Shown: piece after piece, positions 1 to 63,227 of the stretch
Layout: each line of letters starts with the position of its first letter
Numbering within the stretch: the stretch's first letter is position 1
Assembly (NCBI GenBank): GCA_020720805.1
Contig: DYNZ01000006.1
Span: 22,632 to 85,858, forward strand
Source: Leptospira biflexa
GTDB taxonomy: Bacteria > Spirochaetota > DYNZ01
Reading direction: 5' to 3'
DNA length: 63,227 nt
Position numbers and translations under genes: made by a program
The notes under the pieces: generated by a model
Told to the model about the DNA's origin: nothing
The model's database searches: none
What the model saw: only the letters and a program-made list of their open reading frames with translations

Positions 1-90
1 TGCCGCACAACGTGCGTATCGCTTCTGAACTATACAGTACAAAAGGAAGCGATGCCATGGAGAAAACCAATTTCTTTACGGTTTAGAAAC
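1..90. repeat. Partial copy (right end) of hairpin-bearing interspersed element family F: one 43-bp stem-loop unit (13-55) plus conserved tail ggaagcgatgccatggRgaaaaccaatttctt
   Basis: Near-identical to 15918-16036 (two tandem 43-bp units) and to 33337-33436 in reverse orientation. Lies 8 bp downstream of the flgE stop. Confidence 0.6.
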
Positions 91-3512: not shown

Positions 3513-3550
3513 CGCTAGTTACACAAAAGAGACCTCAAATTAGATGAATA

Positions 3551-3743
3551 CCAATAAGCATCGATGCTTCGATAAACTCAGCACAAGATTTGACCGGTTA
3601 GGCAATGCCATAACCGCGTCCTTATCGACCTTGGTATAAACGGTTGCAGGATACCCTGACAGCATGGCGTTGCCTTGCATCGGGTAATGCCAGGTCGTGG
3701 TAGTACCAACGTCCTTTTGGCACAAAGTCCATTGCAAACAGTA
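3551..3743. repeat. Interspersed repeat family A (long form, 193 bp), flanked by TA/TA
   Basis: Same element at 12094-12193 (deleted form), 15708-16264 (inverted, with F insertion), 49211-49336 (inverted, inside a D element) and variant copies at 25517-25789 and 63101-end. ORF 3540..3737 on it is spurious. Confidence 0.7.
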
Positions 3744-11899: not shown

Positions 11900-12093
11900 G
11901 GTAAGCTCCTCTGGATATCAGCATTGTACATCTCTGATAGAGGGCTACATTGATTTTTTTTTAGAAAAAATTCAAAAAAAATGACAAATTTCTGCTTTTT
12001 TTTCAAAAAAACCTCCAATACCGGGCTAATCTCCTTTTTGGCTTGCTTATTGAACCGTTTAGAATAAAACAAGAGGATAACGATTCGATTATA

Positions 12094-12193
12094 CCAATAA
12101 GCATCGAATTTGACCGGTTAGGCAACGCCATAACCGCGTCCTTATCGACCTTGGCATAAACGGTTGCTGGACAAAGTCCATCGCAAACAGTAT
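12094..12193. repeat. Family A repeat, internally deleted copy (100 bp), TA-flanked
   Basis: Matches the ends of 3551-3743 with internal deletions. Spurious ORFs 12003..12275 and 12089..12322 overlap it. Confidence 0.65.
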
Positions 12194-12209: not shown

Positions 12210-14330
12210 TTGAGTAGGGAGAACTCTGGTTTTATGGATGTGAAGACAACGAACACAAAAAACACCTCTTTCCATATGAAACGAACTTTTCGCAATAAAA
12301 TTGTGCTGCCAATCGCCGCCACATTCCTATTCAGTTTTCTTGCCGCTTATGTGGCCATCTCAAAACTTAGCTTTGACGAGATCCTGCGCACAGCGGAAAA
12401 ATCCCTCCTCAATCAGGTTAGCAAAATCACATCCGAGATCAGCAAGCTCAGCGAAAGGGCGTTGCTGCTTACCCTGCCGATCTCCCAGATTACGGAGATT
12501 GAAAGGGCTTACTTGATTCCAGACGAGACTCGGGGTCGTAATGCCCTGCGTGCAGCGCTGATACCCCATTTTCAGGTTCTCCAAAAGCACTCCAATCTAT
12601 CCCATCTGCGCCTCCATTTTCACAAACCTCCTGCCCGCAGCTTTCTTCGCACCTGGATTGCCCCTGGCAACCCCGCGGAAGGGGGGGGATGATCTTTCCT
12701 CATTCCGTAGTACCCTGCTCTCTGTTTACCAAAACAGACAACCCCTGACAACGGTAGAGATTGGTTATAATGGTATGTTCTTCCGAGGGATAATGCCCAT
12801 CATTAAAGAAAACCGTTACCTTGGTTCTATGGAGATGTATTTTAAACCATCCGATCTTTTTTCGTTCGTTGAACAAGGCAGCCAACTCTCCATTTTTATT
12901 ACAAAAGAGTTTTCTGGCATTATCGATTCCGCTCGCTTTGCCAAGGACAATCTCCAAAAGCGCGGCTCCTATCTGCTTTTGGCAGGTACAGTAACCACTG
13001 CACCTGAATATCTCCAGGAAAAGCTGCTCGATAACGGCAGAGAAAAGATCTCCATACATAGAGAGGGGCATTATCTGGTAGCGACATTTCCCATTAAAAA
13101 CCACAAAAAAGAGACGGTCGCAATTTTCGCTCTATCCAAAAATATCGAATCCTCTCTGGCAGAAATCCGCAAGACAGAATGGACCTTGGCCGCGCTATTC
13201 CTGGTTTCGCTGGGTCTGGTTTTTGCCGTGATTTTTTTTGTCGTGCGCGTGGCATCAGGCCCTCTGCTCACGGCAAAAACAACTATACAGGAGATGGCCA
13301 AGGGAGAGGGAGATCTCCGCAAAAGACTGTAGGTCTCCTCCTCGGATGAGTTCGGCAAATTGGCCTACTGGTTAAATGCCTTTATCGAGGTTCTATCTGG
13401 AATCATCACGCAGATCAAGGAGTCCAGCCAACAGAGTTCTCATATCTCCAAACAGCTTGAGGCTCTTGCCGAAAAAGTTACCCAATCCTCACAAAACCAG
13501 GCCTCCTCATCCGAGGAGTCATCGGCCTCCATTGAAGAGATCACCTCCTCGATCGAAGAGGTATTGAACTCTTTATCCATGCAGACTCAAAATGCCCAGG
13601 GGAATAAAGAGGATGTGATGCATTTAAACGAAATGGGCAATGCCATCAATACAGCCATGAAGGAGCTACTGGCGCTGGTTCAGGACTCGTCGCAGCGGGC
13701 ATCAGTGGGAGGCGAGACAGTCATCGCGGTAACCCACACTCTATGGATGAGATGAAAAACCACGCCAGCCAGATTAGCCAGTTTGTGAACAGTATAACCG
13801 ATATCTCCGATCAGACCAACCTGCTCGCCCTGAATGCTGCCATTGAAGCTGCCCGCGCCGGCGACAGCGGCAAAGGCTTTGCCGTGGTTACTGATGAAAT
13901 CGGCAAACTTTCTGAAAAAACAGTTTTATCGGTGAAGGAGATTACCAAGCTTATAGAAAAAACCACTGATTCTGTCCAGGAAGCGTTTACCCGCTCCGAG
14001 ACCGCCGCCACGGAGATGATATCGATTATTACCTCCGTCGATAAAATGAAAACATTTATTGCAAACGTGGTCACATCTGTGGAAGAACAGACAAGAATGG
14101 CAAATTTGATTAGAGAGAGAGCCGCAAACGTTACACGCATGGCTGCCGACATTGAGCGCAGCATTCGCGAGCAAAAGCTCAGCATCGAAGAGGTCAACAG
14201 CGTTATGTCAGGACTGGCAACTGAGGCTCAAGATATTTCTCAGCAATCAGAACATATTCGCTCTATGATCGATCGCCTCAATGAGGTCAGCGCCAGCCTC
14301 CATTCTCTGGTAGGAAAGTTTCTCACCTAA
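12210..14330 (+). pseudogene. Methyl-accepting chemotaxis protein (Cache-type sensor, HAMP, MCP signalling domain) disrupted by 3 lesions
   Basis: Four ORF pieces. LHFHKPPARSFLRTW / GGDDLSSFR Cache motif split at a G8 tract (12681-12688; G7 would be in frame). In-frame TAG at 13330-13332 inside HAMP (GEGDLRKRL*VSSSDEFGKLAYWLNAF). 1-nt frameshift near 13741 inside the conserved signalling domain ([26 protein letters not shown]). Confidence 0.6.
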
Positions 14331-15707: not shown

Positions 15708-16264
15708 TACTGTTTGCAATGGACTTTGTGCCAAAAGGAGGTTGGCATACTATAAAGAAAGTGCTTTTCGCACTTTCTGGTGCTTCGACCTTGCTCAGCA
15801 CTAGCTTCGTTATCCTTGCTGCCGAATTTTCATTGAAATTTGGCATGTCCCCGCAAAACCTTTCCAAGGCTTTTGCGGGGACAGACATGGTTTCCCGGGG
15901 CGATGCCGCGCAGCGTGCGTATCGCTTCCGAATTATAAAATACAAAAAGGAAGCGATGCTGCGTATCGCTTCCGAATTATAAAATACAAAAAGGAAGCGA
16001 TGCCATGGGGAAAACCAATTTCTTTTCGGTATAATACCACGACCTGGCATTACCCGACGCAAGGCAACGCCATGCAGTCAGGGTATCCTGCAACTGTCAA
16101 TGCGATGTGCACGGATGCACGAGTGTCGCGGGTGACAGGAAGTCACAGGAGCGACCGACGTCCACGGATGGAAAAGAGCTGACACTAGGTCGATAAGAAC
16201 GCGGTTATGGCATTGCCCAACCGGTCACTTGTGCTGAGTTTATCGAAGCATCGATGCTTATTGG
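15708..16264. repeat. Composite repeat: family A copy (inverted, long form) carrying a ~290-bp family F insertion (approx 15746-16036) with hairpins and two tandem 43-bp stem-loop units (15918-15960, 15961-16003)
   Basis: Ends match the reverse complement of 3551-3743 with TA flanks. Internal perfect hairpins agaaagtgc/gcactttct (9 bp) and gtccccgcaaaa/ttttgcggggac (12 bp). ORFs 15679..16062, 15698..15982 and 16000..16182 are spurious. Confidence 0.7.
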
Positions 16265-16480
16265 TATATCTTCCCGAAAAGAGACAGCTCTTCCCCAAAG
16301 CTGCACCTTCATTTGGATTTTTTCAATTAAACTAAGATTCCAAATCGATGCCTACAGAAAACTGAATTCTTTTGAATAGAACTACCCACGCCGATTTTTC
16401 TTCGTTTACAAATTTGAGAACAGCAGACAAATCGTCCTAGGCGACAACATCAAGAAAGCTATACCAGGGTAAAGACAGAT

Positions 16481-16912: not shown

Positions 16913-19900
16913 TTGGCTAATATGTCTGCCACGAAAGCAAAAGAAATCCTTTTCAGGATTTTCATCCTTACTTTTTCATCCCTTTTATTCGCAACAGCGC
17001 TCCAGGCTCAATCGGAGTGGGACAATCCAAAAACAGAGGGGAAAACTCTTTCCGCTCAACAGCGCTTAAACCTTCAGCAAAAGTTCCAGAGCTCCTACTT
17101 TTTCTCCCGCCAAGAGTTTTTCGGCCATGAACGCCACAAAAAAATTCCTATCCGCATCTGGCCTTTTTGGGAGAAGGAAGACCATGCCGGCTACTACAGC
17201 CATACAATTTTCTGGCCCCTTTACCAGTTCGAACAAAACAGGGCGTTACTGAACGAGGGATTGCCCAATGCCAAGTGGCAAATCCTGCTGCTCTGGAGCG
17301 GGAAACAGACGCCATTCTGGCGCTCCCTCAATCTCTTCCCGTTTTATTATTTCTGGAAGGAAAGTGCCCTTAGCGGAACTCAGTCACACGATCTCTTGCA
17401 AACAGAACAGCTATTGCTTCTCCCTTTTTATTACCAAAAAGAGAGGTTCAAATCCGCTCCCCAGGAGTTATACTGCGACGAAAGTGCTTCCAGCACCTTG
17501 CAAAGCAGATCTGATCTCCAAGGACAAAACCAAAATGCCGAATTTTTGCCATACCGACTACAAGATGTAGGAGGTGCAGCATTTGCCATGGATGGCAAAA
17601 ATGCTGCCTTGTCAAAACCGGCTCGACCCACTCCGTGTAAATCGGGCAACGAATCTCCTTTTGGTACAAGCCAGCGCAGCCGAATCAGTCACTACTGGAA
17701 TGTACTTTTCCTGGTTGAACGCGAGCGGGATTTCACGAATCATTCGTACAGCACCACTTTACTCTATCATCTGGTGCACTGGTCCTCGCATCCTCTGGGT
17801 CAAACCCATTACGCGCTCCCTTTTTACTATTACCAGCGCCAGCAATTATCTCAGGACGCAGGCCAACGCTTCCTCTGGATTCTGCCATGGATAACCTATA
17901 CCAACAGCTTTGACCAAAAACCCAACCATTCATGGGAATCCAACCATTTCAACCTGATGTTTCTCTACCAATTTTCCCACAGGCGGGAAAAAGATACGAC
18001 GACAGCGAAAAAGCACTCCCTCCTTTTTCATCTGCTCAGCTATGGTTTCCAGCAAAGCCCTACATCTTCCTATTGGAACCTAATGTTTTTGCCCTTGTTC
18101 TATTACAGCCAGGAGAGCGTAAAAAAATCTCCGTTAACCGAAAAGAACCACTCTCTCTTTCTATTTCCGCTGCTCTACAGCGAATACCAGAGCTTCGCCG
18201 ACGGCAAGCGTCCCGTCTGCTCTCCCTCTTACTTTAACCTTCTCTTCCTTTTAGAACATGAAAAATATTGTTATGTTAACAGAGATAGTAACAACGAAAA
18301 AAAAGAGTGGCACTACCTGTTCCGCCTTGGCTATGCAACTTCAAATCGTGATTCGGGCGAATATTATTTCTTGCCATTGTTTTATCATGAGTATAGTCGC
18401 TGGACCACAGGCCGCAGCAGCACTGCTACCTTTGTTTTCCCCTTTTACCTCAGCAATGAGGTCTCCTATGCAGGCGCTCCGGATCTCCAGGCCGCATCTG
18501 GCAAGCGCAGCGAATGGTTAGGGACTCTCTTTAGTAGGATCAGCCAGAACGGTGCAGCAGAATCAAAATATTTCTCTATTCTTCCTCTAATGCATAGATG
18601 GGTGTCACAGGGGGGCGATCATACCCGAAATGTTTTTTTTCCCATCCTGTGGCATCGCAGCCGCAACAGCGGAAACGATCTCGATCTAACTGTTTTCCCC
18701 TTTTTCTGGCTCTATCTGCACCCGCAAAGTAAATATATTAATATATTTCCGCTCTTTCATCTTTCCCAGCATAAAAGAGCCCTGCTCCAGGACTCCGAAT
18801 TGGTCGAAAGACGGGCATCCGCATTTTTTCTGCTCTGGTATCAATATCGCCGATCGATCATCAGGAAAGACAGCCAGGGAAGGCTGCGTGAAGATATCCA
18901 AAGCAAGCAGACGGATATTCTCTACCCCTTGATCTCGTTCCAGGACAACGACGACGAGCGCCACGTGCGTGTATTTCCGCTGTACTGGTTTACCTATTCC
19001 AAGGTAGATCAAAGCCGGTTGCATTTTATCCCTCCATTTTACATGGAGTACCAGGATCGCTCCGAGCGCTACCTCTCGCTTTTCCCTTTTTATGGCAGTT
19101 ACGAGCTGTACGGCCGAAAAAAAATGACATCACTGTTCGGCCCTCTCCACTTCCGAGAAGAGAACTACGAAGATCGGAAAGCGACGGTTTCTCTCTTTTG
19201 GCCGTTTATCTCCGTGACAAAAGAGTTTGAAAATATTGCAGCTCTGGGTCAAAACCCTCTGTCCGCGCCAATCAATCAGAAAAATATCTCTTTCTCGATA
19301 TTTCCGTTGGTATTCTGGAGAATCGAAAAAGATTGGCACAGGAAAATTATTTTTCCCATATACTGGTCTATCGGGGACGATAACCAGACTGCCTCCAACG
19401 CCAGCCAGTTTTATGGAATCCTTCCCCCTATCTATTGGAGCTACCAGGAGGGCAATTATAAGCTGCGCTCCTTTATCTTCCCTTTATGGATTGGCGTACG
19501 CGACTATCGTATCAATTCAGAAGAAAATATCTCCAATCACTACTTACTGTCCGGATTGGCGGCATTCAGAAATCGCACCAGAGGCAGGGAAAATACACTT
19601 CGTGAAAACTGGTTTTTTCCGATTTGGTACTATTATCACAAAAACCCTCCTGATGCAGCCACAGACAGCCAGGTTCAAGAAAGATCGTGGAATCTACTTC
19701 TACTAGTAGACTATAATAGCCAAATTGCAACCCAGAGGAGTACAAGCCACTCCAGATTGGAAAAAAATTTTTGGATCTATCCTCTGTTCTCTCATTATTC
19801 TCAAATGAATAAAAACCTCCATGAAAGTCGATGGAGATACCACTCTCGCGAACGCAGCATGTTGCTACCTGTGTACTATTGGCGCGATGTTCGCTCTATC

Positions 19901-21001
19901 CTGCCAAACTCCTATCATGAGGATAAAATCAGAATCTTTACGCCTGTTATCTGGTGGATGAATACTCTCCAGGAAACCGTCACCTGGAAAACCGTCCCGG
20001 ATCTTTTGGGAACTCCTGAAAAAACACCCCGTGAGGTAAATGCGCTCCAGAATGATTTTACTGTCCACTTATGGCCTCTCTTTTTTTATCGAAGCGAGCA
20101 GCAAAGCGATAAAGATTGTCGGGGGGCGGAGTGCCCTCTTGTGCGAAGATCCGATCTCCAGGAGTACGGCACCTTATGGCCCTTTATTCGACGCAAGACC
20201 TTTACCAGTTACGATACCAACCATTATAGCTCGGCAACCTGGGCGCTCTTTCCTATCAGCGGCTGGACCAATGAGTACAACTACGCAAATGTCCTGAATG
20301 GTAAATACACAAGAGAGTGGTATATTTTACGTCTAGTTATGCAGGGAGAGCACCTAATGTCCGAGGGCAATGCAGACCATAGAATGGATTGGCTCTACCC
20401 CTTTGGCAATTTGCGCTATAAAACAACAGGAACATCCAGAGAGTACTCCTTTGATCCATTATGGCCTCTTGTCCACTACAGCATCCGTCATAAATGGCAC
20501 CAGGAAGATCCTGAAGAGCTCTTAAAAAACAGCAATTACAGGCTCTACCTCCTTCCCCTAGTTTGGTCAGAACAGCTACATAGTGGAGAAGAGCTACTGG
20601 AAAGTACACATTGGCTCTTTCCCCTCTTTTACAAAGATTTTCAACGTGAAAGAAATGCATTGACCATAATCTCGCTTCCTTGGCAATATTTTGCCAATGC
20701 TACGGAGAAGGAGTGGTTTTTCCTAGGGCCAGTCATGATGTATGAAGAAAGCATTGACAAACCTGGAAAAGAAAATGTCAGCGATCTCCGCTTCTTGTGG
20801 TCGGTGTTCCGTTATTACCATAAATGGACGCCAGGTAGCCGCGATATTTACTCTAACCACCTGTTTTTAATCTACAATTACGAACGGGAAAAATCAGAAA
20901 AACTGGATTACACCTATTTTTCTCTGCTAAAATTTGTTTACATCTACGAGAGGGAACAGGATAAAACAACCAACCGACTATTCTACTTTATCAAATGGTG
21001 A
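16913..21001 (+). CDS. Giant secreted aromatic-repeat protein (1362 aa), unknown function
   Basis: Signal peptide (…FATALQA-QSEW). Dozens of ~25-30-aa repeats with core ΦΦ(F/L/Y)P(L/F/I)(F/Y/W)(Y/W), e.g. LFPFYYFW, FLPLFYYS, FFPIWYYY, LFPLFYKDF. Very rich in W/F/Y/H. Confidence 0.8.
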   Translation: MANMSATKAKEILFRIFILTFSSLLFATALQAQSEWDNPKTEGKTLSAQQRLNLQQKFQSSYFFSRQEFFGHERHKKIPIRIWPFWEKEDHAGYYSHTIFWPLYQFEQNRALLNEGLPNAKWQILLLWSGKQTPFWRSLNLFPFYYFWKESALSGTQSHDLLQTEQLLLLPFYYQKERFKSAPQELYCDESASSTLQSRSDLQGQNQNAEFLPYRLQDVGGAAFAMDGKNAALSKPARPTPCKSGNESPFGTSQRSRISHYWNVLFLVERERDFTNHSYSTTLLYHLVHWSSHPLGQTHYALPFYYYQRQQLSQDAGQRFLWILPWITYTNSFDQKPNHSWESNHFNLMFLYQFSHRREKDTTTAKKHSLLFHLLSYGFQQSPTSSYWNLMFLPLFYYSQESVKKSPLTEKNHSLFLFPLLYSEYQSFADGKRPVCSPSYFNLLFLLEHEKYCYVNRDSNNEKKEWHYLFRLGYATSNRDSGEYYFLPLFYHEYSRWTTGRSSTATFVFPFYLSNEVSYAGAPDLQAASGKRSEWLGTLFSRISQNGAAESKYFSILPLMHRWVSQGGDHTRNVFFPILWHRSRNSGNDLDLTVFPFFWLYLHPQSKYINIFPLFHLSQHKRALLQDSELVERRASAFFLLWYQYRRSIIRKDSQGRLREDIQSKQTDILYPLISFQDNDDERHVRVFPLYWFTYSKVDQSRLHFIPPFYMEYQDRSERYLSLFPFYGSYELYGRKKMTSLFGPLHFREENYEDRKATVSLFWPFISVTKEFENIAALGQNPLSAPINQKNISFSIFPLVFWRIEKDWHRKIIFPIYWSIGDDNQTASNASQFYGILPPIYWSYQEGNYKLRSFIFPLWIGVRDYRINSEENISNHYLLSGLAAFRNRTRGRENTLRENWFFPIWYYYHKNPPDAATDSQVQERSWNLLLLVDYNSQIATQRSTSHSRLEKNFWIYPLFSHYSQMNKNLHESRWRYHSRERSMLLPVYYWRDVRSILPNSYHEDKIRIFTPVIWWMNTLQETVTWKTVPDLLGTPEKTPREVNALQNDFTVHLWPLFFYRSEQQSDKDCRGAECPLVRRSDLQEYGTLWPFIRRKTFTSYDTNHYSSATWALFPISGWTNEYNYANVLNGKYTREWYILRLVMQGEHLMSEGNADHRMDWLYPFGNLRYKTTGTSREYSFDPLWPLVHYSIRHKWHQEDPEELLKNSNYRLYLLPLVWSEQLHSGEELLESTHWLFPLFYKDFQRERNALTIISLPWQYFANATEKEWFFLGPVMMYEESIDKPGKENVSDLRFLWSVFRYYHKWTPGSRDIYSNHLFLIYNYEREKSEKLDYTYFSLLKFVYIYEREQDKTTNRLFYFIKW

Positions 21002-24735: not shown

Positions 24736-25332
24736 CTATGCCGGTAGAATGAGTTCACTCCAGGCTGATCGATTCCCCAATTGCTCCTGCAATAGTGAAT
24801 AGTAAAAAAAGGCGTTCAAGACCAACGAGTGATGAATCTCTCCCCGACGTATCATATCAGGAATCTCCCGCAGAGGAACCAGAAGAGTACGGATATCTTC
24901 ATTTTCATCGAGATTTAGCTTTCCCGTAGCCTGAACAGGGTACTGTAGAAATGAGTGACAGCGGTTATTATGGGTGGCCGGATTAGGCTGAACCATACCA
25001 AGGGGAATAGCTCGCCCCCCCTCATATCCAGTCTCCTCCAATAGCTCCCGTTGCGCCGCAGTTAAAGGATCTTCGCCAGGCTCTGACAGCCCACCCGGAA
25101 TCTCAAGAGTGAAAGCACGCTCACCCATCCGAAATTGCTGGATCAACACAACATCGAAATCTTTTGTGACAGGGATGATATTGACCCATTCAGGATTCTC
25201 TAAAATAAAAAAGTTATGTGTCTTATTGCGTCCTTTCAGGGTTGCCCTGATCCGCACAACATCAAAAATACGGCATGAGAATACGCTCTCTTCATCTTCA
25301 ATGAGCCATGGTTCCAATTTTTCCGGTTGCAA
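24736..25332 (-). CDS. NUDIX hydrolase (198 aa)
   Basis: Nudix box GGLSEPGEDPLTAAQRELLEETGYEG. Confidence 0.8.
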   Translation of the reverse strand: MQPEKLEPWLIEDEESVFSCRIFDVVRIRATLKGRNKTHNFFILENPEWVNIIPVTKDFDVVLIQQFRMGERAFTLEIPGGLSEPGEDPLTAAQRELLEETGYEGGRAIPLGMVQPNPATHNNRCHSFLQYPVQATGKLNLDENEDIRTLLVPLREIPDMIRRGEIHHSLVLNAFFYYSLLQEQLGNRSAWSELILPA

Positions 25333-25516
25333 TGGGGATTCCTTTCCTGCAGATCATAACAGTATGTGAAAACAACTCCATACATGTCTGTCAAACGAGA
25401 TGATGACCATACTCCTGACAATCCAGAATCCCTTCAAAAATGCCTACTGTTTTTTTATCCCACCCCAAAAAAGTAGCTTGAAAGAGTGAATCCATTCTGA
25501 AGAAACTCCTACTAGA

Positions 25517-25789
25517 CTGATAAGAATCGATGCTTCGATATACTCGAAACACTTTGGTTCTCGGGTTTTATACTGGCTAAAGGGTGCGTCGACATCGCTG
25601 GCATTGCCTTGCGATATCCGAAAACCAAAATGCCTTTAGTATAAACTTGGATGGTGAGCCTGCGATGCATCGAGCTTGTCGAGAAGTCGAACTACAGCAT
25701 AAGATTTACTTCGATAGACTCAGTACAAGTGAACGGTTGGGCAATGCCATAATCGCGTCCTTTTGGTACAAAGTTCATGGCAGACGGTA
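25517..25789. repeat. Family A repeat (subfamily 2) with a nested family D MITE insertion at 25541-25642 (TA duplicated)
   Basis: The A left end ...atcgatgcttcgaTA is interrupted by tactcgaaac...cctttagta, then TAaac... continues. Same D element at 47903-48003, 62780-62880 and split at 49141-49377. ORF 25584..25805 is spurious. Confidence 0.7.
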
Positions 25790-25855
25790 TTCATTCGATA
25801 TATAATGAAAATTGACCGAAAACGCACATTTTCATTGCCGTAGGAAGGTGGAATT

Positions 25856-27862
25856 TTGACGAACTGGGGAAGCACAGCTAACTTAAGATATATGGAGCTA
25901 ACAGAAAAAAAATACTATATCTATTATACACCCGTTTGCTTTTTACCAAGCCTGATCCCTTTTACTACAGAATTCCAGTACCAACTGGTGGAATTGAATT
26001 CGGATAATTTTGAAACCTGTCTTGGCAAATCGGACGACTTTATCGCCTTATACCTTATTGATGAAATTTTTTTCCAGACGCACCAATTAAAATTAGAGGA
26101 GATATTCCGCTACAGAGATACTCCGTTTCAGGGAATCCTCTATTTTTATAAAGATGAATTTCGCCCATCAAACTTTCGCTACAGCGATAATATACTGCAA
26201 AGCTTTCCCCTTCCGTTGACGGAAAAAAAGGGGGGGGTCTTTCTTCAGGTTCTGAAAAAAAGCATGCAGATCATGGAAGGAGAGTTTGACGCTCTTGTTA
26301 CACAGCGACAGCTTCTCCAAAGATCGCATCAGCTCAATGAGGTTGCCAAAATCGGAATTGCTCTCTCTACGGAACGAAACCACGATAAACTTCTTGCGCT
26401 CATTTTGAATAAAGCCAAGGATTTATCAACCTCTGACTCAGGTTCACTCTATCTGGTGGAAAAAAGTCCTAAAAGTAAAAGCAAGCGGCTCCGTTTCAAG
26501 CTCTCTTCGATGAACCTGAATGCCACTGAATTTACAATTCCCATTGACCAGAACAGTATTGCTGGCTATGTCGCCTTAACAGGAAAGATTGTAAACCTGG
26601 CGGACGCTTATTATCCACCGCAGGATTCCGGTTTCAAAATAAATAAAAGCTTTGATCAGGAGACTGGCTACCGCACCAAATCCATGATCGTTGTTCCCAT
26701 GAAAAACCAGAAAGATGAGGTGATCGGCGTCCTGCAATTGATCAACCGAAAGCCAAGCCGTTCTCTTCGCCTGGAAAACCCTGAACAAATAGAAAGAGTT
26801 GTCATCCCTTTTGATGATATCTCCATCGAGCTTGTCACAAGTCTTGCAGGCCAGGCCGCTGTCTCTATTGAAAATAATATTTTATACCAGGATATCCACA
26901 ACCTGTTCGAGGGATTTGTAACCGCAGCGGTAACAGCCATCGAATCCCGGGACCCTACCACGTCAGGACACTCGTCACGAGTCGCTACATTAACCGTAGG
27001 ATTAGCCGAAACCCTTGATAAAATTAAAAGTGGCCCCTATGCAAAAACCTCATTTACTAGCGATCAAATCCGGGAAATTCGCTATGCTAGTTTGCTGCAT
27101 GACTTTGGCAAAGTCGGCGTTAGAGAAAAGGTTCTGGTAAAGGCCAAAAAACTCTATCCTTATGATTTGCAAACTATTGATGAGAGGTTTGCCTTTATCA
27201 AAAGGACCCTGCAATATGAATTCAGTCAAAAAAAACTTGATTACCTGTTAGCAAAAAACCGTCAGGCGACTTTGGAAGAGCTTGGATTCTTTGATCGCGA
27301 GCTAGAAGCCGCCATGAAGGAGATGGATGATTATCTTAAGCTTATCCTCGAAGCGAATGAGCCAACAGTGCTTGAGTCTGGCTCCTTCGAAAAAATTCTT
27401 TCAATCGCGAAAATGACATATCTCGATATCAATCAAACACCTCGGCATCTTCTTCTTGACCCGGAAACAACCGTGTTATCGATCCGAAAAGGCTCTCTGA
27501 GCCAGGACGAGCGATTGGAGATTGAATCCCATGTGACCCATACCTTCAAATTTTTATCGCAAATACCATGGACCTCAGAGCTGCGCCAGATACCGGAAAT
27601 TGCCTATGCGCACCATGAAAAACTGGACGGATCCGGATATCCAAATGGCCTGCAAAGTCAGCAGATTCCGACCCAATCCAAAATCATGACCATAACCGAT
27701 ATTTTTGACGCCCTTACCTCCCGCGACCGTCCCTACAAGCGCGCAGTTCCTTTCGACAAAGCGCTCGACATCCTCAGCTACGAAGTCAAAGATCAACTTG
27801 TTGACAAAGATCTTTTTCAAATCTTTGTTGACGCTAAAATCTTTGACCTGGTAAGAAGCTAA
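25856..27862 (+). CDS. HD-GYP c-di-GMP phosphodiesterase with GAF domain and divergent N-terminal domain (668 aa)
   Basis: HD...HDFGK...HHEKLDGSGYPNGL. GAF-like central region. Contains an in-frame A7G8 homopolymer (26223-26237). Confidence 0.8.
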   Translation: MTNWGSTANLRYMELTEKKYYIYYTPVCFLPSLIPFTTEFQYQLVELNSDNFETCLGKSDDFIALYLIDEIFFQTHQLKLEEIFRYRDTPFQGILYFYKDEFRPSNFRYSDNILQSFPLPLTEKKGGVFLQVLKKSMQIMEGEFDALVTQRQLLQRSHQLNEVAKIGIALSTERNHDKLLALILNKAKDLSTSDSGSLYLVEKSPKSKSKRLRFKLSSMNLNATEFTIPIDQNSIAGYVALTGKIVNLADAYYPPQDSGFKINKSFDQETGYRTKSMIVVPMKNQKDEVIGVLQLINRKPSRSLRLENPEQIERVVIPFDDISIELVTSLAGQAAVSIENNILYQDIHNLFEGFVTAAVTAIESRDPTTSGHSSRVATLTVGLAETLDKIKSGPYAKTSFTSDQIREIRYASLLHDFGKVGVREKVLVKAKKLYPYDLQTIDERFAFIKRTLQYEFSQKKLDYLLAKNRQATLEELGFFDRELEAAMKEMDDYLKLILEANEPTVLESGSFEKILSIAKMTYLDINQTPRHLLLDPETTVLSIRKGSLSQDERLEIESHVTHTFKFLSQIPWTSELRQIPEIAYAHHEKLDGSGYPNGLQSQQIPTQSKIMTITDIFDALTSRDRPYKRAVPFDKALDILSYEVKDQLVDKDLFQIFVDAKIFDLVRS

Positions 27863-33312: not shown

Positions 33313-33336
33313 TCCTTTTCTAAACCGAAACGAACT

Positions 33337-33436
33337 CGGATGCGATACACACGCTACGCGGCATCGCTTCCTTTATGATTTTTCAATTTGGTAGCGATAC
33401 AAAGACGCATCGCTTCCTTTATGATTTTTTAATTCA
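33337..33436. repeat. Family F hairpin units (about 2.5 copies, reverse orientation) between epimerase and meaB
   Basis: gcatcgcttcctttatgattttt...ggtagcgatac is the reverse complement of the 43-bp unit at 15918-16003. Confidence 0.6.
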
Positions 33437-46737: not shown

Positions 46738-47829
46738 TTAGATCCGGGCCGGGCGATCCTTGTCCCTGACCTTTGTAATATCAAAAAAAGGACTTTTTTT
46801 GCTGCCCCAGAACACCCCTGTCATATACTTTCCGTCAATGGGTATGCGGTAACTGAAAAAATAGGGCTGTTTGCGATAGTGGCGGATCTGGGGCACAGTC
46901 ACATTTCCAACCCCCATAAAAAAACGAAAGCCCTTCTGGTAGAGATAGGCAAACTTATCATTGTTGTAGGTATCTTCGCCATAGGCCCAGATATAGAGGT
47001 CGGTTTTCCCAACCAGAGAGGCTATCCTCTCCTCCCACAGATCGGTATCCCGTTTGAAGGTGGCATACGATACCTTTTGCGAAAAGATGTGCACATAGCT
47101 ATGCGAGGCAAAACGGTATTTCATCGATTTCAGCTTGTCAATAATCGGCTGAGCCAGAGCCTTCTCCTCATCCGCGATCCCCTTCTTCTGCGTCCTGTAA
47201 CCAAGCACACCATCAAAACCAGTTAGGGCAATCATCGCGCGTGCCCCTTTCCAGGAAAAATCAGGATGAAGGGCGATAAACTTCTCGAGCTGCGAAACAA
47301 TGTTGTTGTGGCCAATCTGTGTTGTGCCGTCAGGCTGAATCTCCTCTGAGGCGATCACCCCCTTGTCCAAAACCAGGCGGGATACAGTTCCATTTTTAAT
47401 ATGCGCTTTATAATAGTTGAGGTCGTCTACAGACATTACAAAAGGCTTCTTTCCCTTTGGCAGGCGCAGGCTCTGCTTGTGAATCCCCTTACCGTCGCTC
47501 TTGTAGGTGTCATAGATATCCACCAGGATATAATTACGCTGGTACAAACTCTCCAGAACGCGCTGAAACTCGCCAAGGGTGACAAACCAGAGCTGGATGT
47601 AGTTGTAGTGGCGGTTGGCACGGTTAAAAAAGGAGTCCTTCTTGTGGATAATCAGGGGGTGAAAAAAGATATGTTCCACATCCCCCTGAAACTCAACGGT
47701 CTCCTGCACCATCGGGTCAGGTTGCTTGCTAACGGAGGCCTCCTGGGGCTTTTGGCAGGACAGGGCAAAAAAAAGCGGAAGCAGAACTGACAGACGAAAC
47801 ATTCGGTACAGGGTTTTAGAATTGGTCAT
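46738..47829 (-). CDS. Lipoprotein, possibly polysaccharide-deacetylase-like (363 aa)
   Basis: Lipobox LSC-Q. MSVDDLNYY and HSYVH motifs weakly reminiscent of the deacetylase/DUF2334 fold. Confidence 0.3.
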   Translation of the reverse strand: MTNSKTLYRMFRLSVLLPLFFALSCQKPQEASVSKQPDPMVQETVEFQGDVEHIFFHPLIIHKKDSFFNRANRHYNYIQLWFVTLGEFQRVLESLYQRNYILVDIYDTYKSDGKGIHKQSLRLPKGKKPFVMSVDDLNYYKAHIKNGTVSRLVLDKGVIASEEIQPDGTTQIGHNNIVSQLEKFIALHPDFSWKGARAMIALTGFDGVLGYRTQKKGIADEEKALAQPIIDKLKSMKYRFASHSYVHIFSQKVSYATFKRDTDLWEERIASLVGKTDLYIWAYGEDTYNNDKFAYLYQKGFRFFMGVGNVTVPQIRHYRKQPYFFSYRIPIDGKYMTGVFWGSKKSPFFDITKVRDKDRPARI

Positions 47830-47902: not shown

Positions 47903-48003
47903 TACTAAAGGCATTTTGGTTTTCGGATATCGCAAGGCAATGCCAGCGATGTCGACGCACCCTTTAGCCAGAATAAAACCCGAGAACCAAAGTGTTTCGA
48001 GTA
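47903..48003. repeat. Family D MITE (101 bp, inverted orientation), TA-flanked
   Basis: Reverse complement of 62780-62880. Imperfect terminal inverted repeats tactcgaaacactttggttctcgg / tactaaaggcattttggttttcgg. ORF 47900..48088 is spurious. Confidence 0.7.
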
Positions 48004-48987: not shown

Positions 48988-49010
48988 CGTTTTTATCCTT
49001 GCGAGGTTCT

Positions 49011-49067
49011 ATATTTTAATAATATGACATTACCTGCCGTAAAAGCAAGTAAAAATTCCAGTCTCTA
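49011..49067 (-). promoter_or_regulatory. 57-bp perfect direct repeat copy 1; sigma70-like promoter on the minus strand (-35 TTGCTT at 49043-49048, 18-bp spacer, -10 TATTAT at 49019-49024) driving the DUF1640-like gene
   Basis: Identical 57-mer at 50019-50075. Promoter hexamers read on the reverse complement. Gene start 24 nt downstream. Confidence 0.4.
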
Positions 49068-49140
49068 CATCTGCCAGCCGCTCCCGGACAAATGCGACAT
49101 AATGCAGTGTCTTTCGCTGCCTTTCCCTCCCGGACGGGAT

Positions 49141-49377
49141 TACGAAAGGCATTTTGGTTTTCGGATATCGCAAGGCAATGCCAGCGATGGCGACGCACCC
49201 TTTAACCAGTATTTACTGTTTGCAATGGACTTTGTCCCGCAACCGTTAATGCCAAGGTCGATAAGGACGCGGTTATGGCATTGCCCAACCGGTCAAATCT
49301 TGTGCTGAGTTTATCGAAGCATCGATGCTTATTGGTATAAAACCCGAGAACCAAAGTGTTTCGAGTATATATGCTAC
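49141..49377. repeat. Composite repeat: family D MITE split by a nested family A insertion (A at 49211-49336, inverted; TA duplicated at 49209-49210 and 49337-49338)
   Basis: D halves 49141-49208 and 49339-49377 are contiguous in intact copies (gggtttta|tactgg). ORFs 49024..49308 and 49202..49552 are spurious. Confidence 0.7.
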
Positions 49378-49436
49378 AATTGAAACGGGGCTGAAAAGTG
49401 CCAGTATGAAATAACCTAAAAATTGATACCAAACTC

Positions 49437-49730
49437 TTATAAATTTCTCTCTTTCCAGTATCCTGGAAAGCGAAAGAGATGGGAAATGGCAATAATATAA
49501 ACAATGTCACTTTCCACAGTATAAATAATGCCAAATGGAAATTTTTTAACAATTTTCCTTCGGAATTTTTTATCTAAGGCCTCGCTAGATTTTGGAAACA
49601 TTTTAATTGATTGAATCGCCTCCTCTATATCACTTAAAAAATCGAGTCCTAATCCGGATGCCTGCTCTTCATAGTAATCAATTGACTCAAACAGCTCATC
49701 ACGTGCTTCAGGCACAAAAACTGCTTTCAT
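49437..49730 (-). CDS. ParE/RelE-family type II toxin (97 aa)
   Basis: FPFGIIYTVESDIVYIIAISHLFRFPGYW C-terminal signature. 4-nt overlap with the upstream antitoxin gene. Confidence 0.65.
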   Translation of the reverse strand: MKAVFVPEARDELFESIDYYEEQASGLGLDFLSDIEEAIQSIKMFPKSSEALDKKFRRKIVKKFPFGIIYTVESDIVYIIAISHLFRFPGYWKERNL

Positions 49731-50018: not shown

Positions 50019-50075
50019 ATATTTTAATAATATGACATTACCTGCCGTAAAAGCAAGTAAAAATTCCAGTCTCTA
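50019..50075 (-). promoter_or_regulatory. 57-bp perfect direct repeat copy 2; same promoter-like module (-10 at 50027-50032, -35 at 50051-50056) upstream of the toxin-antitoxin operon
   Basis: Identical to 49011-49067. ORF 50038..50268 across it is spurious. Confidence 0.4.
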
Positions 50076-50720
50076 TTAAGGGGCATTCGTAACATCTGAA
50101 AAATGTATATTCCCCATCTCCGCATAGTTTAGAAATTATGACGCTAATTTTACCATTTTTGGAAAAAAATCCATCCGAACAATTGCAATGATACCAGTAT
50201 TCAACCTTCCCTGCTGTCCTGCCAGCCGCCCTCGAAACAATGCGACATAATGCGGCCATTTCCGTCACCTCACAGCCTGACGGCTAATGCGACATAACGT
50301 GACGGCTTTATAGTCCTTATCAAATCTGCTAGCCGACTACCAAATTATCCGACTAACAGCACATTTACGAATCGACTTCCTGACACTGCCATAATGCGCT
50401 ATAATGCAACCTCTTTCGCTACAAACCGATTGGCGCAGAGGGTAAATTTGCCCCCATGATATTGAGTCTGGCCAATTCCCCGCAACAATGATTTAAAACA
50501 GCAAAGCCCTGCATGCAGCAAGGCTTCGATAAAATTGGTTGGGATTACTCTTTTCCCGTATAATATCACCGGACCTCCGTGCCAGATACTGCAAGATCCG
50601 TCTATAAAACAAATTATGGATCCAAAAAGTTTAATAAATTATTTTTCTATAACCACATCACCTTTTTATGTATTAATGATATTTGTGTTTTCAAACTGCA
50701 TCTCTTCCTTTTAGCAGATA

Positions 50721-62779: not shown

Positions 62780-62880
62780 TACTCGAAACACTTTGGTTCT
62801 CGGGTTTTATACTGGCTAAAGGGTGCGTCGACATCGCTGGCATTGCCTTGCGATATCCGAAAACCAAAATGCCTTTAGTA
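62780..62880. repeat. Family D MITE (101 bp), TA-flanked, downstream of pstS
   Basis: Identical family to 25541-25642 and 47903-48003. Confidence 0.7.
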
Positions 62881-63100: not shown

Positions 63101-63227
63101 AAGAATATACCAAAAAGTATCGATGCTTCAATGAACTCAGCACAAGATTTACTTCGATAGACTCAGTACAAGTGACCGGTTGGGCAATGCCATAACCGCG
63201 TCCTTTTGGCACAAAGTCCATTGCAAA
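63101..63227. repeat. Family A repeat (subfamily 2 with internal ~23-bp duplication-like insert), truncated by the window end
   Basis: Matches 25660-25789 and the ends of 3551-3743. ORF 63024..63221 is spurious. Confidence 0.6.

What the first reader, a model, noticed from the sequence alone, without database searches (positions are those of the whole stretch)
25517..25789. Reciprocal nested insertions show two active TA-targeting miniature-element families
Family D (~101 bp) has imperfect ~24-bp terminal inverted repeats (tactcgaaacactttggttctcgg / tactaaaggcattttggttttcgg) and is always flanked by TA. Family A (~125-195 bp) is also TA-flanked but has no obvious inverted termini. At 25541-25642 a D element sits inside an A element with the TA of ...cgaTA duplicated. 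At 49211-49336 an A element sits inside a D element, splitting 'gggtttta|tactgg' with TA duplicated. Each family has therefore transposed into the other. A TA target duplication is the hallmark of IS630/Tc1-mariner-type transposases, so an IS630-like autonomous partner is expected elsewhere in the genome. Nine or more copies of these elements occur in 63 kb, typically in intergenic leaders or trailers.
Basis: seen in the sequence. Interest (0 to 1): 0.6.

Follow-up and report, generated by a model that had tools for sequence, protein, structure and literature searches.

The report
Nested TA-duplicating miniature transposons (MITEs)
This stretch of an uncultured spirochaete-like bacterium from a sulfidic cave carries several families of tiny non-coding mobile elements that insert at TA and have landed inside one another, an ordinary kind of bacterial repeat whose driving transposase could not be found in the sequence available.

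Summary
At 25541-25641 a 101-bp element (D) sits in a repeat of family A. The empty form CTTCGA-TA-AAC, seen in three other A copies, becomes CTTCGA-TA-[D]-TA-AAC. At 49214-49337 an A copy splits a D copy, and GGGTTT-TA-TACTGG becomes GGGTTT-TA-[A]-AA-TACTGG, a TA duplication with one later T>A change.

D has 18/24 terminal inverted repeats (0 of 20,000 shuffles reach this) and TA at 9 of 10 flanks. It is a classic MITE. A has TA at 8 of 12 flanks, but its ends share only TAC/GTA, and it is a mosaic of hairpin blocks.

I add three points.
- A third family, X (284 bp), has ends related to D's.
- The D-end/A-end junction recurs at three loci and D sits at the same TA of A at two loci, so composites spread as units or a hot spot exists.
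- Three relatives (GyrA 72-76% identical) carry no D, and the two that retain the NUDIX-GAF spacer have it empty.

No transposase lies in about 97 kb of this genome, so the IS630 partner stays inferred and "active" is unproven. All data come from short-read metagenome assemblies. Verdict: new members of a known kind, low to moderate interest.

The parts
25515..25538 (+). A copy 3, left arm (GACTGATAAGAATCGATGCTTCGA). A TA at 25513-14 lies just outside it.
   Evidence: It aligns to the A consensus TACCAATAAGCATCGATGCTTCGA.
25539..25540 (.). TA on the left of D. This is the target TA of the A sequence CGA-TA-AAC.
   Evidence: A copies 1, 5 and 6 have a single TA here.
25541..25641 (+). D element, 101 nt. 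Terminal repeats are TACTCGAAACACTTTGGTTCTCGG and TACTAAAGGCATTTTGGTTTTCGG.
   Evidence: It is 100% identical to the copy at 62780-62880. The terminal repeats match at 18/24.
25642..25643 (.). Duplicated TA on the right of D.
25644..25789 (+). A copy 3, right part. It includes a 47-nt extra block and a second CTTCGATAGACTCAGTACAAG unit, and ends ...GACGGTA. The flank is TT, a decayed TA.
   Evidence: alignment A4.
49141..49211 (-). D positions 31-101 of the split D copy. It is an older copy with 3 mismatches. Its outer flank is AT, not TA.
49212..49213 (.). Decayed copy of the duplicated TA. It reads AA on the element strand.
   Evidence: One T>A change relative to the expected TA.
49214..49337 (-). 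A copy 6 (124 nt, TACCAATAAGC...GCAAACAGTA) inserted in D.
   Evidence: It is 96% identical to A copy 1 over 104 nt.
49338..49367 (-). D positions 1-30 of the split D copy. Its inner TA (49338-39) is the target of the A insertion. An outer TA lies at 49368-69.
   Evidence: It is 100% identical to the other D copies.
62780..62880 (+). Intact D copy, two bases after the stop codon of a PstS-like gene, flanked by TA on both sides.
47903..48003 (-). Intact D copy (one mismatch) flanked by TA on both sides. It lies 73 nt upstream of the 363-aa gene at 46738-47829.
3549..3743 (+). A copy 1 (195 nt) in the flagellar operon spacer. It carries the 54-nt palindromic unit M at 3652-3705.
12092..12192 (+). 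A copy 2 (101 nt). It lacks the 23-nt unit and is flanked by TA on both sides.
15708..16266 (-). A copy 5, flanked by TA on both sides. It is expanded by nested X (15748-16031), M (16034-16085) and a 90-nt replaced block (16098-16186).
15748..16031 (+). X element (284 nt), a third MITE family. Its terminal repeats are TACTATAAAGAAAGTGCTTTTCGC and TACCGAAAAGAAATTGGTTTTCCC (18/25). It shares the TGGTTTTC core with the D ends.
   Evidence: D versus X ends give p = 0.003.
63108..63227 (+). A copy 4, cut by the end of the window. It is complete in NCBI contig 77 (locus L023).
1..85 (+). Right end of another X copy, cut by the start of the window.

Best explanation
D (101 bp) and X (284 bp) are miniature inverted-repeat transposable elements. 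A (about 100-195 bp) is a related kind of TA-flanked non-coding repeat without inverted ends. None encodes a protein.

The most likely mechanism is mobilisation in trans by a DDE transposase of the IS630/Tc1-mariner type. Such an enzyme binds the roughly 24-bp ends, cuts the element out, and inserts it into a TA dinucleotide that is duplicated on repair.

Because the elements contain TA sites themselves, they land in one another. An A copy inserted into the TATA at positions 29-32 of a D copy. D inserted into the CGA-TA-AAC site of A. X inserted into an A copy. A composite that keeps two good ends, such as D[A] with both D ends, can then be moved as one unit. This would explain the same junction at several loci.

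Shown: insertion with TA duplication, terminal repeats for D and X, multiple dispersed intergenic copies, near-identity of D copies, and absence of D from three relatives.

Inferred: the identity of the transposase, trans-mobilisation, composite mobilisation, and present-day activity.
For: Filled versus paralogous empty sites with a TA duplication, for D in A and for A in D.

D terminal repeats match at 18/24, with 0 of 20,000 shuffles reaching this. X terminal repeats match at 18/25.

TA is present at 9/10 D flanks and 8/12 A flanks, against a TA frequency of 0.05-0.07.

Seven D copies were seen in about 97 kb: four in the window, L015:1218-1319, L023:15921-16021, and a degenerate outer D end in L023. 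Identity runs from 100% down to 96% for the full copies and 76% for the degenerate end, which indicates insertions of different ages.

Contigs of three independent assemblies stop inside D, A or X, as expected for high-copy repeats.

All copies are intergenic, and no ORF with a Pfam domain lies in them.

Two syntenic relatives have NUDIX next to the GAF gene with no element between. No D and no full A copy lies in 22, 13 and 11 kb of three relatives.

A 99-nt X-type element splits an Rpn-like gene in relative L019. Removing 101 nt restores a 299-aa ORF.

ISY100 of the IS630 family needs only 24-bp imperfect ends and duplicates TA, sometimes imperfectly. Its end also begins TA just inside the TA duplication (PMC2170065).

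Bacterial MITEs with TA termini and target duplications are common, and RUP is linked to IS630-Spn1 (PMC2229807).
Against: No transposase gene lies in the 63-kb window or in about 34 kb of further sequence from the same genome.

The D end is not similar to the ISY100 end, and no IS reference library was available.

A has no terminal inverted repeats. It may use another mechanism or be a decayed composite.

A 2-bp TA duplication is typical of IS630 but not exclusive to it.

All sequences are short-read metagenome assemblies. Repeat copies can be homogenised, and at least one contig (NCBI CDCMRS010000051.1) changes partner exactly at D ends.

No empty and filled alleles were seen within the population.
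Confidence: 0.65

Rival explanations
1. The elements are MITEs, but they are driven by a DDE transposase of another family that also makes very short TA-containing duplications. Examples would be some IS5 subgroups or an undescribed family, rather than IS630/Tc1-mariner.
For: The partner was not found. The D end does not resemble the ISY100 end. The same end type (TA|TACTGGAGCCACTTTGGTTTTCGGG) heads a very different GC-rich repeat in a Planctomycetota MAG. This points to a widespread but unidentified end class.
Against: An exact 2-bp TA duplication with ends of about 24 bp is the IS630/Tc1-mariner signature (PMC2170065). IS5-type elements more often give 3-4 bp duplications; this last point is from general knowledge and was not tested here.
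Confidence: 0.15
2. Family A, and possibly the small unit M, is not a cut-and-paste DDE element. It would be a hairpin-based repeat moved as single-stranded DNA by a Y1/HUH enzyme, of the REP/RAYT or IS200/IS605 'PATE' type. Alternatively it is a decayed composite that only travels inside other elements.
For: A has no inverted ends (6/22, p = 0.49). It is rich in hairpins: z = -3.4 on both strands for copy 2, though copy 6 is not significant at z = -1.64 and -1.15. It is a mosaic of blocks that are present or absent.
Against: TA occurs at both flanks far more often than chance. The insertion into D adds one TA-like dinucleotide, which behaves as a target duplication. Left flanks share nothing beyond TA, so there is no conserved 4-5-nt target as in IS200/IS605. 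Solo A copies lie in unrelated sites without D ends.
Confidence: 0.12
3. The mosaics arise from recombination or gene conversion between dispersed repeats, or from assembly cross-talk between repeat copies, and not from transposition into one another.
For: NCBI contig 51 is collinear with the window only from 25645 to 49370, and both break points lie at D ends. Its version of the D[A] nest differs by a 23-nt block and three substitutions. Contigs end in repeats.
Against: The two halves of the split D are exactly complementary (positions 1-30 and 31-101) with one extra dinucleotide. D in A is likewise exact. Recombination does not produce this. The junctions are reproduced in the window, NCBI and JGI assemblies.
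Confidence: 0.05
4. The repeats are genes or signals for structured RNAs, such as small RNAs, terminators or attenuators, that were copied around the genome for a function.
For: They lie in leaders and trailers, and some copies fold well.
Against: There is no Rfam match even at E = 1. None of the 16 predicted pairs shows a compensatory change, and the covariation term is about 0. No consistent promoter-like or terminator-like site lies inside D or A. Orientation relative to neighbouring genes is mixed.
Confidence: 0.03

Closest known systems
RUP (repeat unit of pneumococcus) with IS630-Spn1, Streptococcus pneumoniae
   Same: A non-coding element of about 100 bp (RUP is 107 bp, D is 101 bp) with terminal inverted repeats. 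It inserts at TA, has many mostly intergenic copies, and tends to land in other mobile elements (PMC2229807).
   Different: RUP ends match a resident IS630-family element. No partner was found for D. There is no sequence similarity. The host phylum differs.
Correia / NEMIS elements of Neisseria
   Same: Size class of 100-155 bp, TA at the termini, a TA duplication, inverted ends of about 25 bp, internal-deletion size variants, and no known transposase (PMC2229807).
   Different: Correia carries an IHF site and promoter and RNase III signals. None was detected here. The sequences are unrelated.
ISY100 (IS630/Tc1-mariner family), Synechocystis
   Same: 24-bp imperfect terminal repeats are sufficient in cis. 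Insertion is almost exclusively into TA, with TA duplication and occasional AA/TT or one-sided variants. The element end starts TA just inside the duplication.
   Different: ISY100 is autonomous, at about 950 bp with a transposase gene. Its end sequence is not similar to D (6/22 beyond the first three bases).
Stowaway-type MITEs and nested MITE insertions in plant genomes
   Same: TA-duplicating MITEs cross-mobilised by mariner-like transposases. Frequent self-nesting generates composite families (general knowledge; Feschotte et al. 2005 as cited in PMC2229807).
   Different: These are eukaryotic hosts with much larger copy numbers. Here the host is a bacterium and three or more families are interleaved within 63 kb.
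REPIN/RAYT and IS200/IS605-derived palindromic elements
   Same: Short, hairpin-rich extragenic repeats without coding capacity. This resembles family A.
   Different: Those systems make no target duplication and have a conserved short target or tetranucleotide. A and D show TA on both sides and a gain of one TA on insertion.

Membership tests
MITE (bacterial miniature inverted-repeat transposable element) | Small size (under about 400 bp) and no coding capacity | tested here: met
   D is 101 nt, A is 101-195 nt and X is 284 nt. ORFs that overlap the elements have no Pfam hit.
MITE (bacterial miniature inverted-repeat transposable element) | Terminal inverted repeats | tested here: met
   Met for D (18/24, 0 of 20,000 shuffles) and X (18/25). 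Not met for A (6/22 beyond TAC, p = 0.49). A is therefore MITE-like only in its TA flanks.
MITE (bacterial miniature inverted-repeat transposable element) | Target-site duplication shown by filled versus empty sites | tested here: met
   Paralogous empty sites were used. A copies without D read CGA-TA-AAC, and D copies without A read TTT-TA-TACTGG. The filled sites gain one TA, or AA after one change. Orthologous empty alleles within the species were not available.
MITE (bacterial miniature inverted-repeat transposable element) | Multiple dispersed copies in unrelated sites | tested here: met
   There are 4 D, 6 A and 3 X copies or fragments in 63 kb, and more in 34 kb of flanking contigs.
MITE (bacterial miniature inverted-repeat transposable element) | An autonomous element with matching ends in the same genome | not testable with these tools
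   No transposase lies in about 97 kb. The rest of the genome could not be reached. Collection scans with the end pattern returned no IS.
IS630/Tc1-mariner-derived element | Insertion into TA with a 2-bp TA duplication | tested here: met
   This agrees with ISY100 behaviour.
IS630/Tc1-mariner-derived element | Ends similar to those of a known IS630-family member | tested here: inconclusive
   Only the ISY100 IRR was available for comparison, and no similarity was found (p = 0.45). No IS reference library was at hand. BLAST of D against plasmids gave only chance hits.
IS630/Tc1-mariner-derived element | A DDE (DD34-35E-type) transposase with N-terminal helix-turn-helix domains that binds the ends | not testable with these tools
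   No candidate gene was found, and binding requires an experiment.
REPIN/RAYT or IS200/IS605 palindromic elements | No target duplication, and a conserved short sequence on one flank only | tested here: not met
   TA lies on both flanks and one TA is gained on insertion. Flanks share nothing beyond TA.
Known structured RNA family (Rfam) | A match to a covariance model, or covariation supporting a fold | tested here: not met
   No Rfam match at gathering score or at E up to 1. None of the 16 predicted pairs shows a compensatory change.

The most novel reading that the evidence does not exclude
The D/X end class (TA|TAC-N8-10-TTGGTTYTC) marks an undescribed transposase lineage. It would be shared by this spirochaete-like lineage, its relatives, and a Planctomycetota MAG. 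The enzyme would tolerate very different ends, including the asymmetric, repeat-less ends of family A. Any two compatible ends brought together by nesting, for example the A left end with the D right end as at L023:15894-16021, would then form a new mobile unit. That would be a bacterial system in which MITE families are continually created by end-shuffling.
Probability: 0.12. Interest if true: 0.55.

Novelty: new member of a known kind. Interest (0 to 1): 0.3.

Why it matters
MITE families have not, to my knowledge, been described for this poorly sampled spirochaete-like lineage. Its nearest GyrA relatives in public data are 72-76% identical.

The elements have three practical consequences.
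- They mark where short-read assemblies of this organism break or mis-join. One public MAG contig changes partner at two D ends.
- They sit in promoter and trailer regions of signalling and flagellar genes.
- They give a relative time-line of insertions: an old D copy was hit by A, and an A copy was hit by a young D.

Biologically this is a well-known phenomenon. The only open points of wider interest are how the repeat-less A family is recognised and which transposase owns the D/X end class.

Tried and rejected
1. Rfam on the whole window at gathering score, and on the element regions at E up to 1. Nothing was found. No tRNA was found as a possible integration target.

2. Search for the autonomous partner.
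- Pfam on 38 window ORFs and the precomputed Pfam of flanking contigs showed no transposase.
- The exact D end in metagenome contigs gave 0 hits, although the JGI contig L002 contains it, so that sample is not in the collection.
- The degenerate pattern in metagenomes gave one chance hit in a gene start.
- Three viral contig scans gave 0 hits.
- BLAST of D against plasmids gave chance hits only.
- A literature string search for the end core returned only primers.

3. Inversion between the inverted D copies at 25541 and 49367, as an explanation for the NCBI contig. Rejected: the NCBI flanks match nothing in the window.

4. A promoter or terminator function for D or A. No consistent sites lie inside D or A, and counts are near shuffle expectation.

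5. An RNA structure for A. No covariation was found.

6. Similarity of the A ends to the D or X ends. Not significant.

7. Testing whether the X-type unit inside the 1362-aa ORF is an insertion, by comparison with homologues. The protein has no homologues.

8. Species-level empty alleles. All public contigs carrying the same proteins come from the same Frasassi population and are identical outside the repeats.

Full report
**What is in the sequence**

Reading 25300-26000 and 49000-49600, a repeat search and BLAST of each unit against the window give a clear census.

Family D is 101 nt, TACTCGAAACACTTTGGTTCTCGGG...TCCGAAAACCAAAATGCCTTTAGTA. The copies are:
- 25541-25641 (+) and 62780-62880 (+), which are identical;
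- 47903-48003 (-), with one mismatch;
- a split copy at 49141-49211 plus 49338-49367 (-).

Family A, oriented TACCAATAAGC...GCAAACAGTA, has these copies:
- 3549-3743 (+);
- 12092-12192 (+);
- 25515-25538 plus 25644-25789 (+);
- 63108 to the window end (+);
- 15708-16266 (-);
- 49214-49337 (-).

Coordinates were fixed by exact string search. The D ends match at 18 of 24 positions, and none of 20,000 shuffles reaches that.

**The two nests**

For D in A, copies 1, 5 and 6 of A read ...GATGCTTCGA-TA-AACTCAG... with one TA. Copy 3 reads ...GATGCTTCGA-TA-[TACTCG...TTTAGTA]-TA-AACT....

For A in D, intact D reads ...CGGGTTT-TA-TACTGG.... The split copy reads ...CGGGTTT-TA-[TACCAAT...AACAGTA]-AA-TACTGG.... 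This is a TA duplication in which the right copy has since changed T>A.

In both cases the two halves of the host element are exactly complementary, with nothing lost. Insertion produces that pattern and recombination does not. Both elements therefore have the same architecture: termini TAC...GTA set inside a duplicated TA.

TA is found at 9 of 10 D flanks and 8 of 12 A flanks. The TA frequency is 0.05-0.07. That gives P between about 1e-11 and 1e-5, depending on the background assumed. The A exceptions are single-base variants (AA, GA, TT, AA). D targets share the context A-TA-AA.

**Family A is different from D**

The two ends of A share nothing beyond TAC/GTA (6 of 22, p = 0.49). They resemble neither the D nor the X ends.

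An alignment of five copies (alignment A4) shows a mosaic:
- a 23-nt unit present 0, 1 or 2 times;
- a 47-nt block in copy 3;
- a 22-nt block present in copies 1, 2 and 6 and absent in copies 3 and 4;
- a 54-nt palindromic unit M (3652-3705, ends matching at 14/23, p = 0.014) in copies 1 and 5.

The short copy folds better than shuffles on both strands (z = -3.4). Copy 6 does not (z = -1.64 and -1.15). None of the 16 predicted pairs shows a compensatory change, and Rfam finds nothing even at E = 1. An RNA function is therefore not supported.

**A third family and a shared end class**

The 284-nt insert X in A copy 5 (15748-16031) has ends TACTATAAAGAAAGTGCTTTTCGC and TACCGAAAAGAAATTGGTTTTCCC (18/25). 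These are significantly related to the D ends (p = 0.003) through a TTGGTTTTC core. Fragments of X lie at 1-85 and 33333-33435.

A 99-nt X-type element lies in the relative L019, where it splits a PF04754 (Rpn-like) gene. Deleting 101 nt (the element plus one TA) restores a 299-aa ORF. This test has only a one-in-three chance expectation, so it is weak support.

A scan of species-representative genomes with the degenerate D end found seven copies of a GC-rich repeat in one Planctomycetota MAG. Each begins TA|TACTGGAGCCACTTTGGTTTTCGGG exactly at the repeat boundary. The pattern itself forces similarity to D. The X end was not used in the pattern, and it also matches (p = 6e-4). I take this as a real end class of unknown ownership that is probably widespread.

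**More of the same genome**

Exact-protein look-ups identify the source as an uncultured organism from Frasassi sulfidic cave biofilms. The records are NCBI GCA_974334805.1, JGI 3300000234 and Logan SRR1560848 (PMC4288042). The best named GyrA relatives are 'Spirochaetota bacterium' MAGs at about 65% identity.

About 34 kb outside the window was recovered. It adds two more full D copies: L015:1218-1319, at 98%, and a second inside the compound site described next.

That compound site is at L023:15861-16026. It reads, in order: a degenerate D left end (33 nt), the first 24 nt of A, TA, a full D (96%), TA, then unrelated DNA.

Together with the variant nest on NCBI contig 51, the D-end/A-end junction ...CTCGG(G/A/T)(T/G)TTTA|TACYAATA(A/G)GC... 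is present at three loci with different outer flanks. D occupies the same TA of A at two loci.

The simplest reading has three parts:
- D[A] composites have been moved as units using the D ends;
- a later D insertion hit one of them;
- a deletion then removed sequence next to the D end.

A strong hot spot, or assembly cross-talk, cannot be excluded without long reads.

**Assemblies**

Contigs from three assemblies stop inside D, A or X. NCBI contig 51 is collinear with the window only from 25645 to 49370. It carries unrelated genes beyond both points: a TetR/ResB side and a Peptidase_C39 side.

Two relatives, L019 and L027, keep NUDIX next to the GAF-HD-GYP gene. The window's order is therefore the ancestral one at the left break. 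The NCBI join is a chimera or a rearrangement at the repeat.

The same relatives have 178-366-nt NUDIX-GAF spacers with no A or D. No D and no full A copy lies in 22, 13 and 11 kb of three relatives. One 41-nt A-left-like stretch (78% identity) lies in an intergenic spacer of L028.

**Mechanism**

The combination seen here is the signature of IS630/Tc1-mariner-type cut-and-paste elements and their MITEs: TA termini, a 2-bp TA duplication and imperfect ends of about 24 bp.
- For ISY100, 24-bp imperfect ends suffice.
- Insertions are almost all into TA, with occasional AA/TT or one-sided variants.
- The ISY100 end begins TA just inside the duplication (PMC2170065).

RUP and Correia are bacterial elements of the same size class. 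RUP is linked to IS630-Spn1 and tends to insert into other mobile elements (PMC2229807). I therefore commit to trans-mobilisation by such a transposase.

The enzyme itself was not found. No transposase domain occurs in any of 38 window ORFs or in the called genes of the flanking contigs. All collection scans failed to retrieve an IS with these ends. No promoter-like or terminator-like feature lies inside D or A.

**Caveats**

All data are short-read metagenome assemblies. The 98-100% identity of D copies may be partly a consensus effect. No within-population empty or filled alleles were available. 'Active' therefore means at most 'recently amplified'.

**Verdict**

It is incomplete in three ways:
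- there are at least three families;
- composites seem to move as units;
- family A is not explained by the inverted-repeat model.

The IS630 partner remains a prediction. This is a new set of members of a well-known kind of element in a little-sampled lineage.

Noticed in passing
window 17471-17666: An X-type mini element (TACTGCGACGAAAGTGCTTCC...GGAGATTCGTTGCCC, reverse TACCAAAAGGAGATTCG; its left end is close to the right end of the L019 mini element, TACTGCGA[A/C]GAAAGTG by eye). It lies inside the 1362-aa ORF 16913-21001 and stays in frame: 196 nt plus 2 equals 66 codons. The host protein has no Pfam domain and no homologue in 5.8 billion proteins, so an empty form could not be checked.
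   Followed up: partly
window 12210-14330: A chemoreceptor-like gene (dCache_3 ... MCPsignal) is broken into four consecutive or overlapping ORFs. It is a probable frameshifted pseudogene or a product of sequence errors. A copy 2 lies just upstream.
   Followed up: no
window 49011-49067 and 50019-50075 (also 49071-49105 and 50219-50253): A 57-nt perfect direct repeat, plus a 35-nt stretch at 86%, brackets the D[A] nest and a ParE toxin/antitoxin pair. The whole 48-56 kb block is low in GC (34-40%).
   Followed up: no
window 25645 and 49370 versus loci L001, L015, L012, L017: Public MAG contig CDCMRS010000051.1 (GCA_974334805.1) is identical to the window only between these two points and continues into unrelated genes on both sides. 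Both switches are at D ends. Its D[A] nest lacks 23 nt of A. Synteny in two relatives supports the window's order at the left switch.
   Followed up: partly
L019:4912-5010: A 99-nt X-type mini element splits a PF04754 (Transposase_31/Rpn-like) gene in the closest relative. Removing 101 nt restores a 299-aa ORF.
   Followed up: yes
L004-L006 and L008-L011 (Planctomycetota MAG EPI_MAG_00172): At least 7 copies of a GC-rich repeat start TA|TACTGGAGCCACTTTGGTTTTCGGG, the D-type end. They contain tandem units of about 68 nt, and most lie at contig ends. The tails of two copies (L005, L008) look like the 5' part of a structured RNA or intron, which was not tested.
   Followed up: partly
window 15916-16003: A perfect tandem duplication of a 44-nt hairpin unit (TGCGTATCGCTTCC...GGAAGCGATGC) inside X. 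Single related units lie at 13-56 and 33352-33400.
   Followed up: no
L028:2660-2710: An A-left-like stretch (TACTGATAAGCAGCGATACTTCGACAGGGCTCAGCACA, 78% over 41 nt) preceded by TA. It lies in the GyrA-FapA spacer of a relative with 72% GyrA identity. Family A may therefore be older or wider than D.
   Followed up: partly
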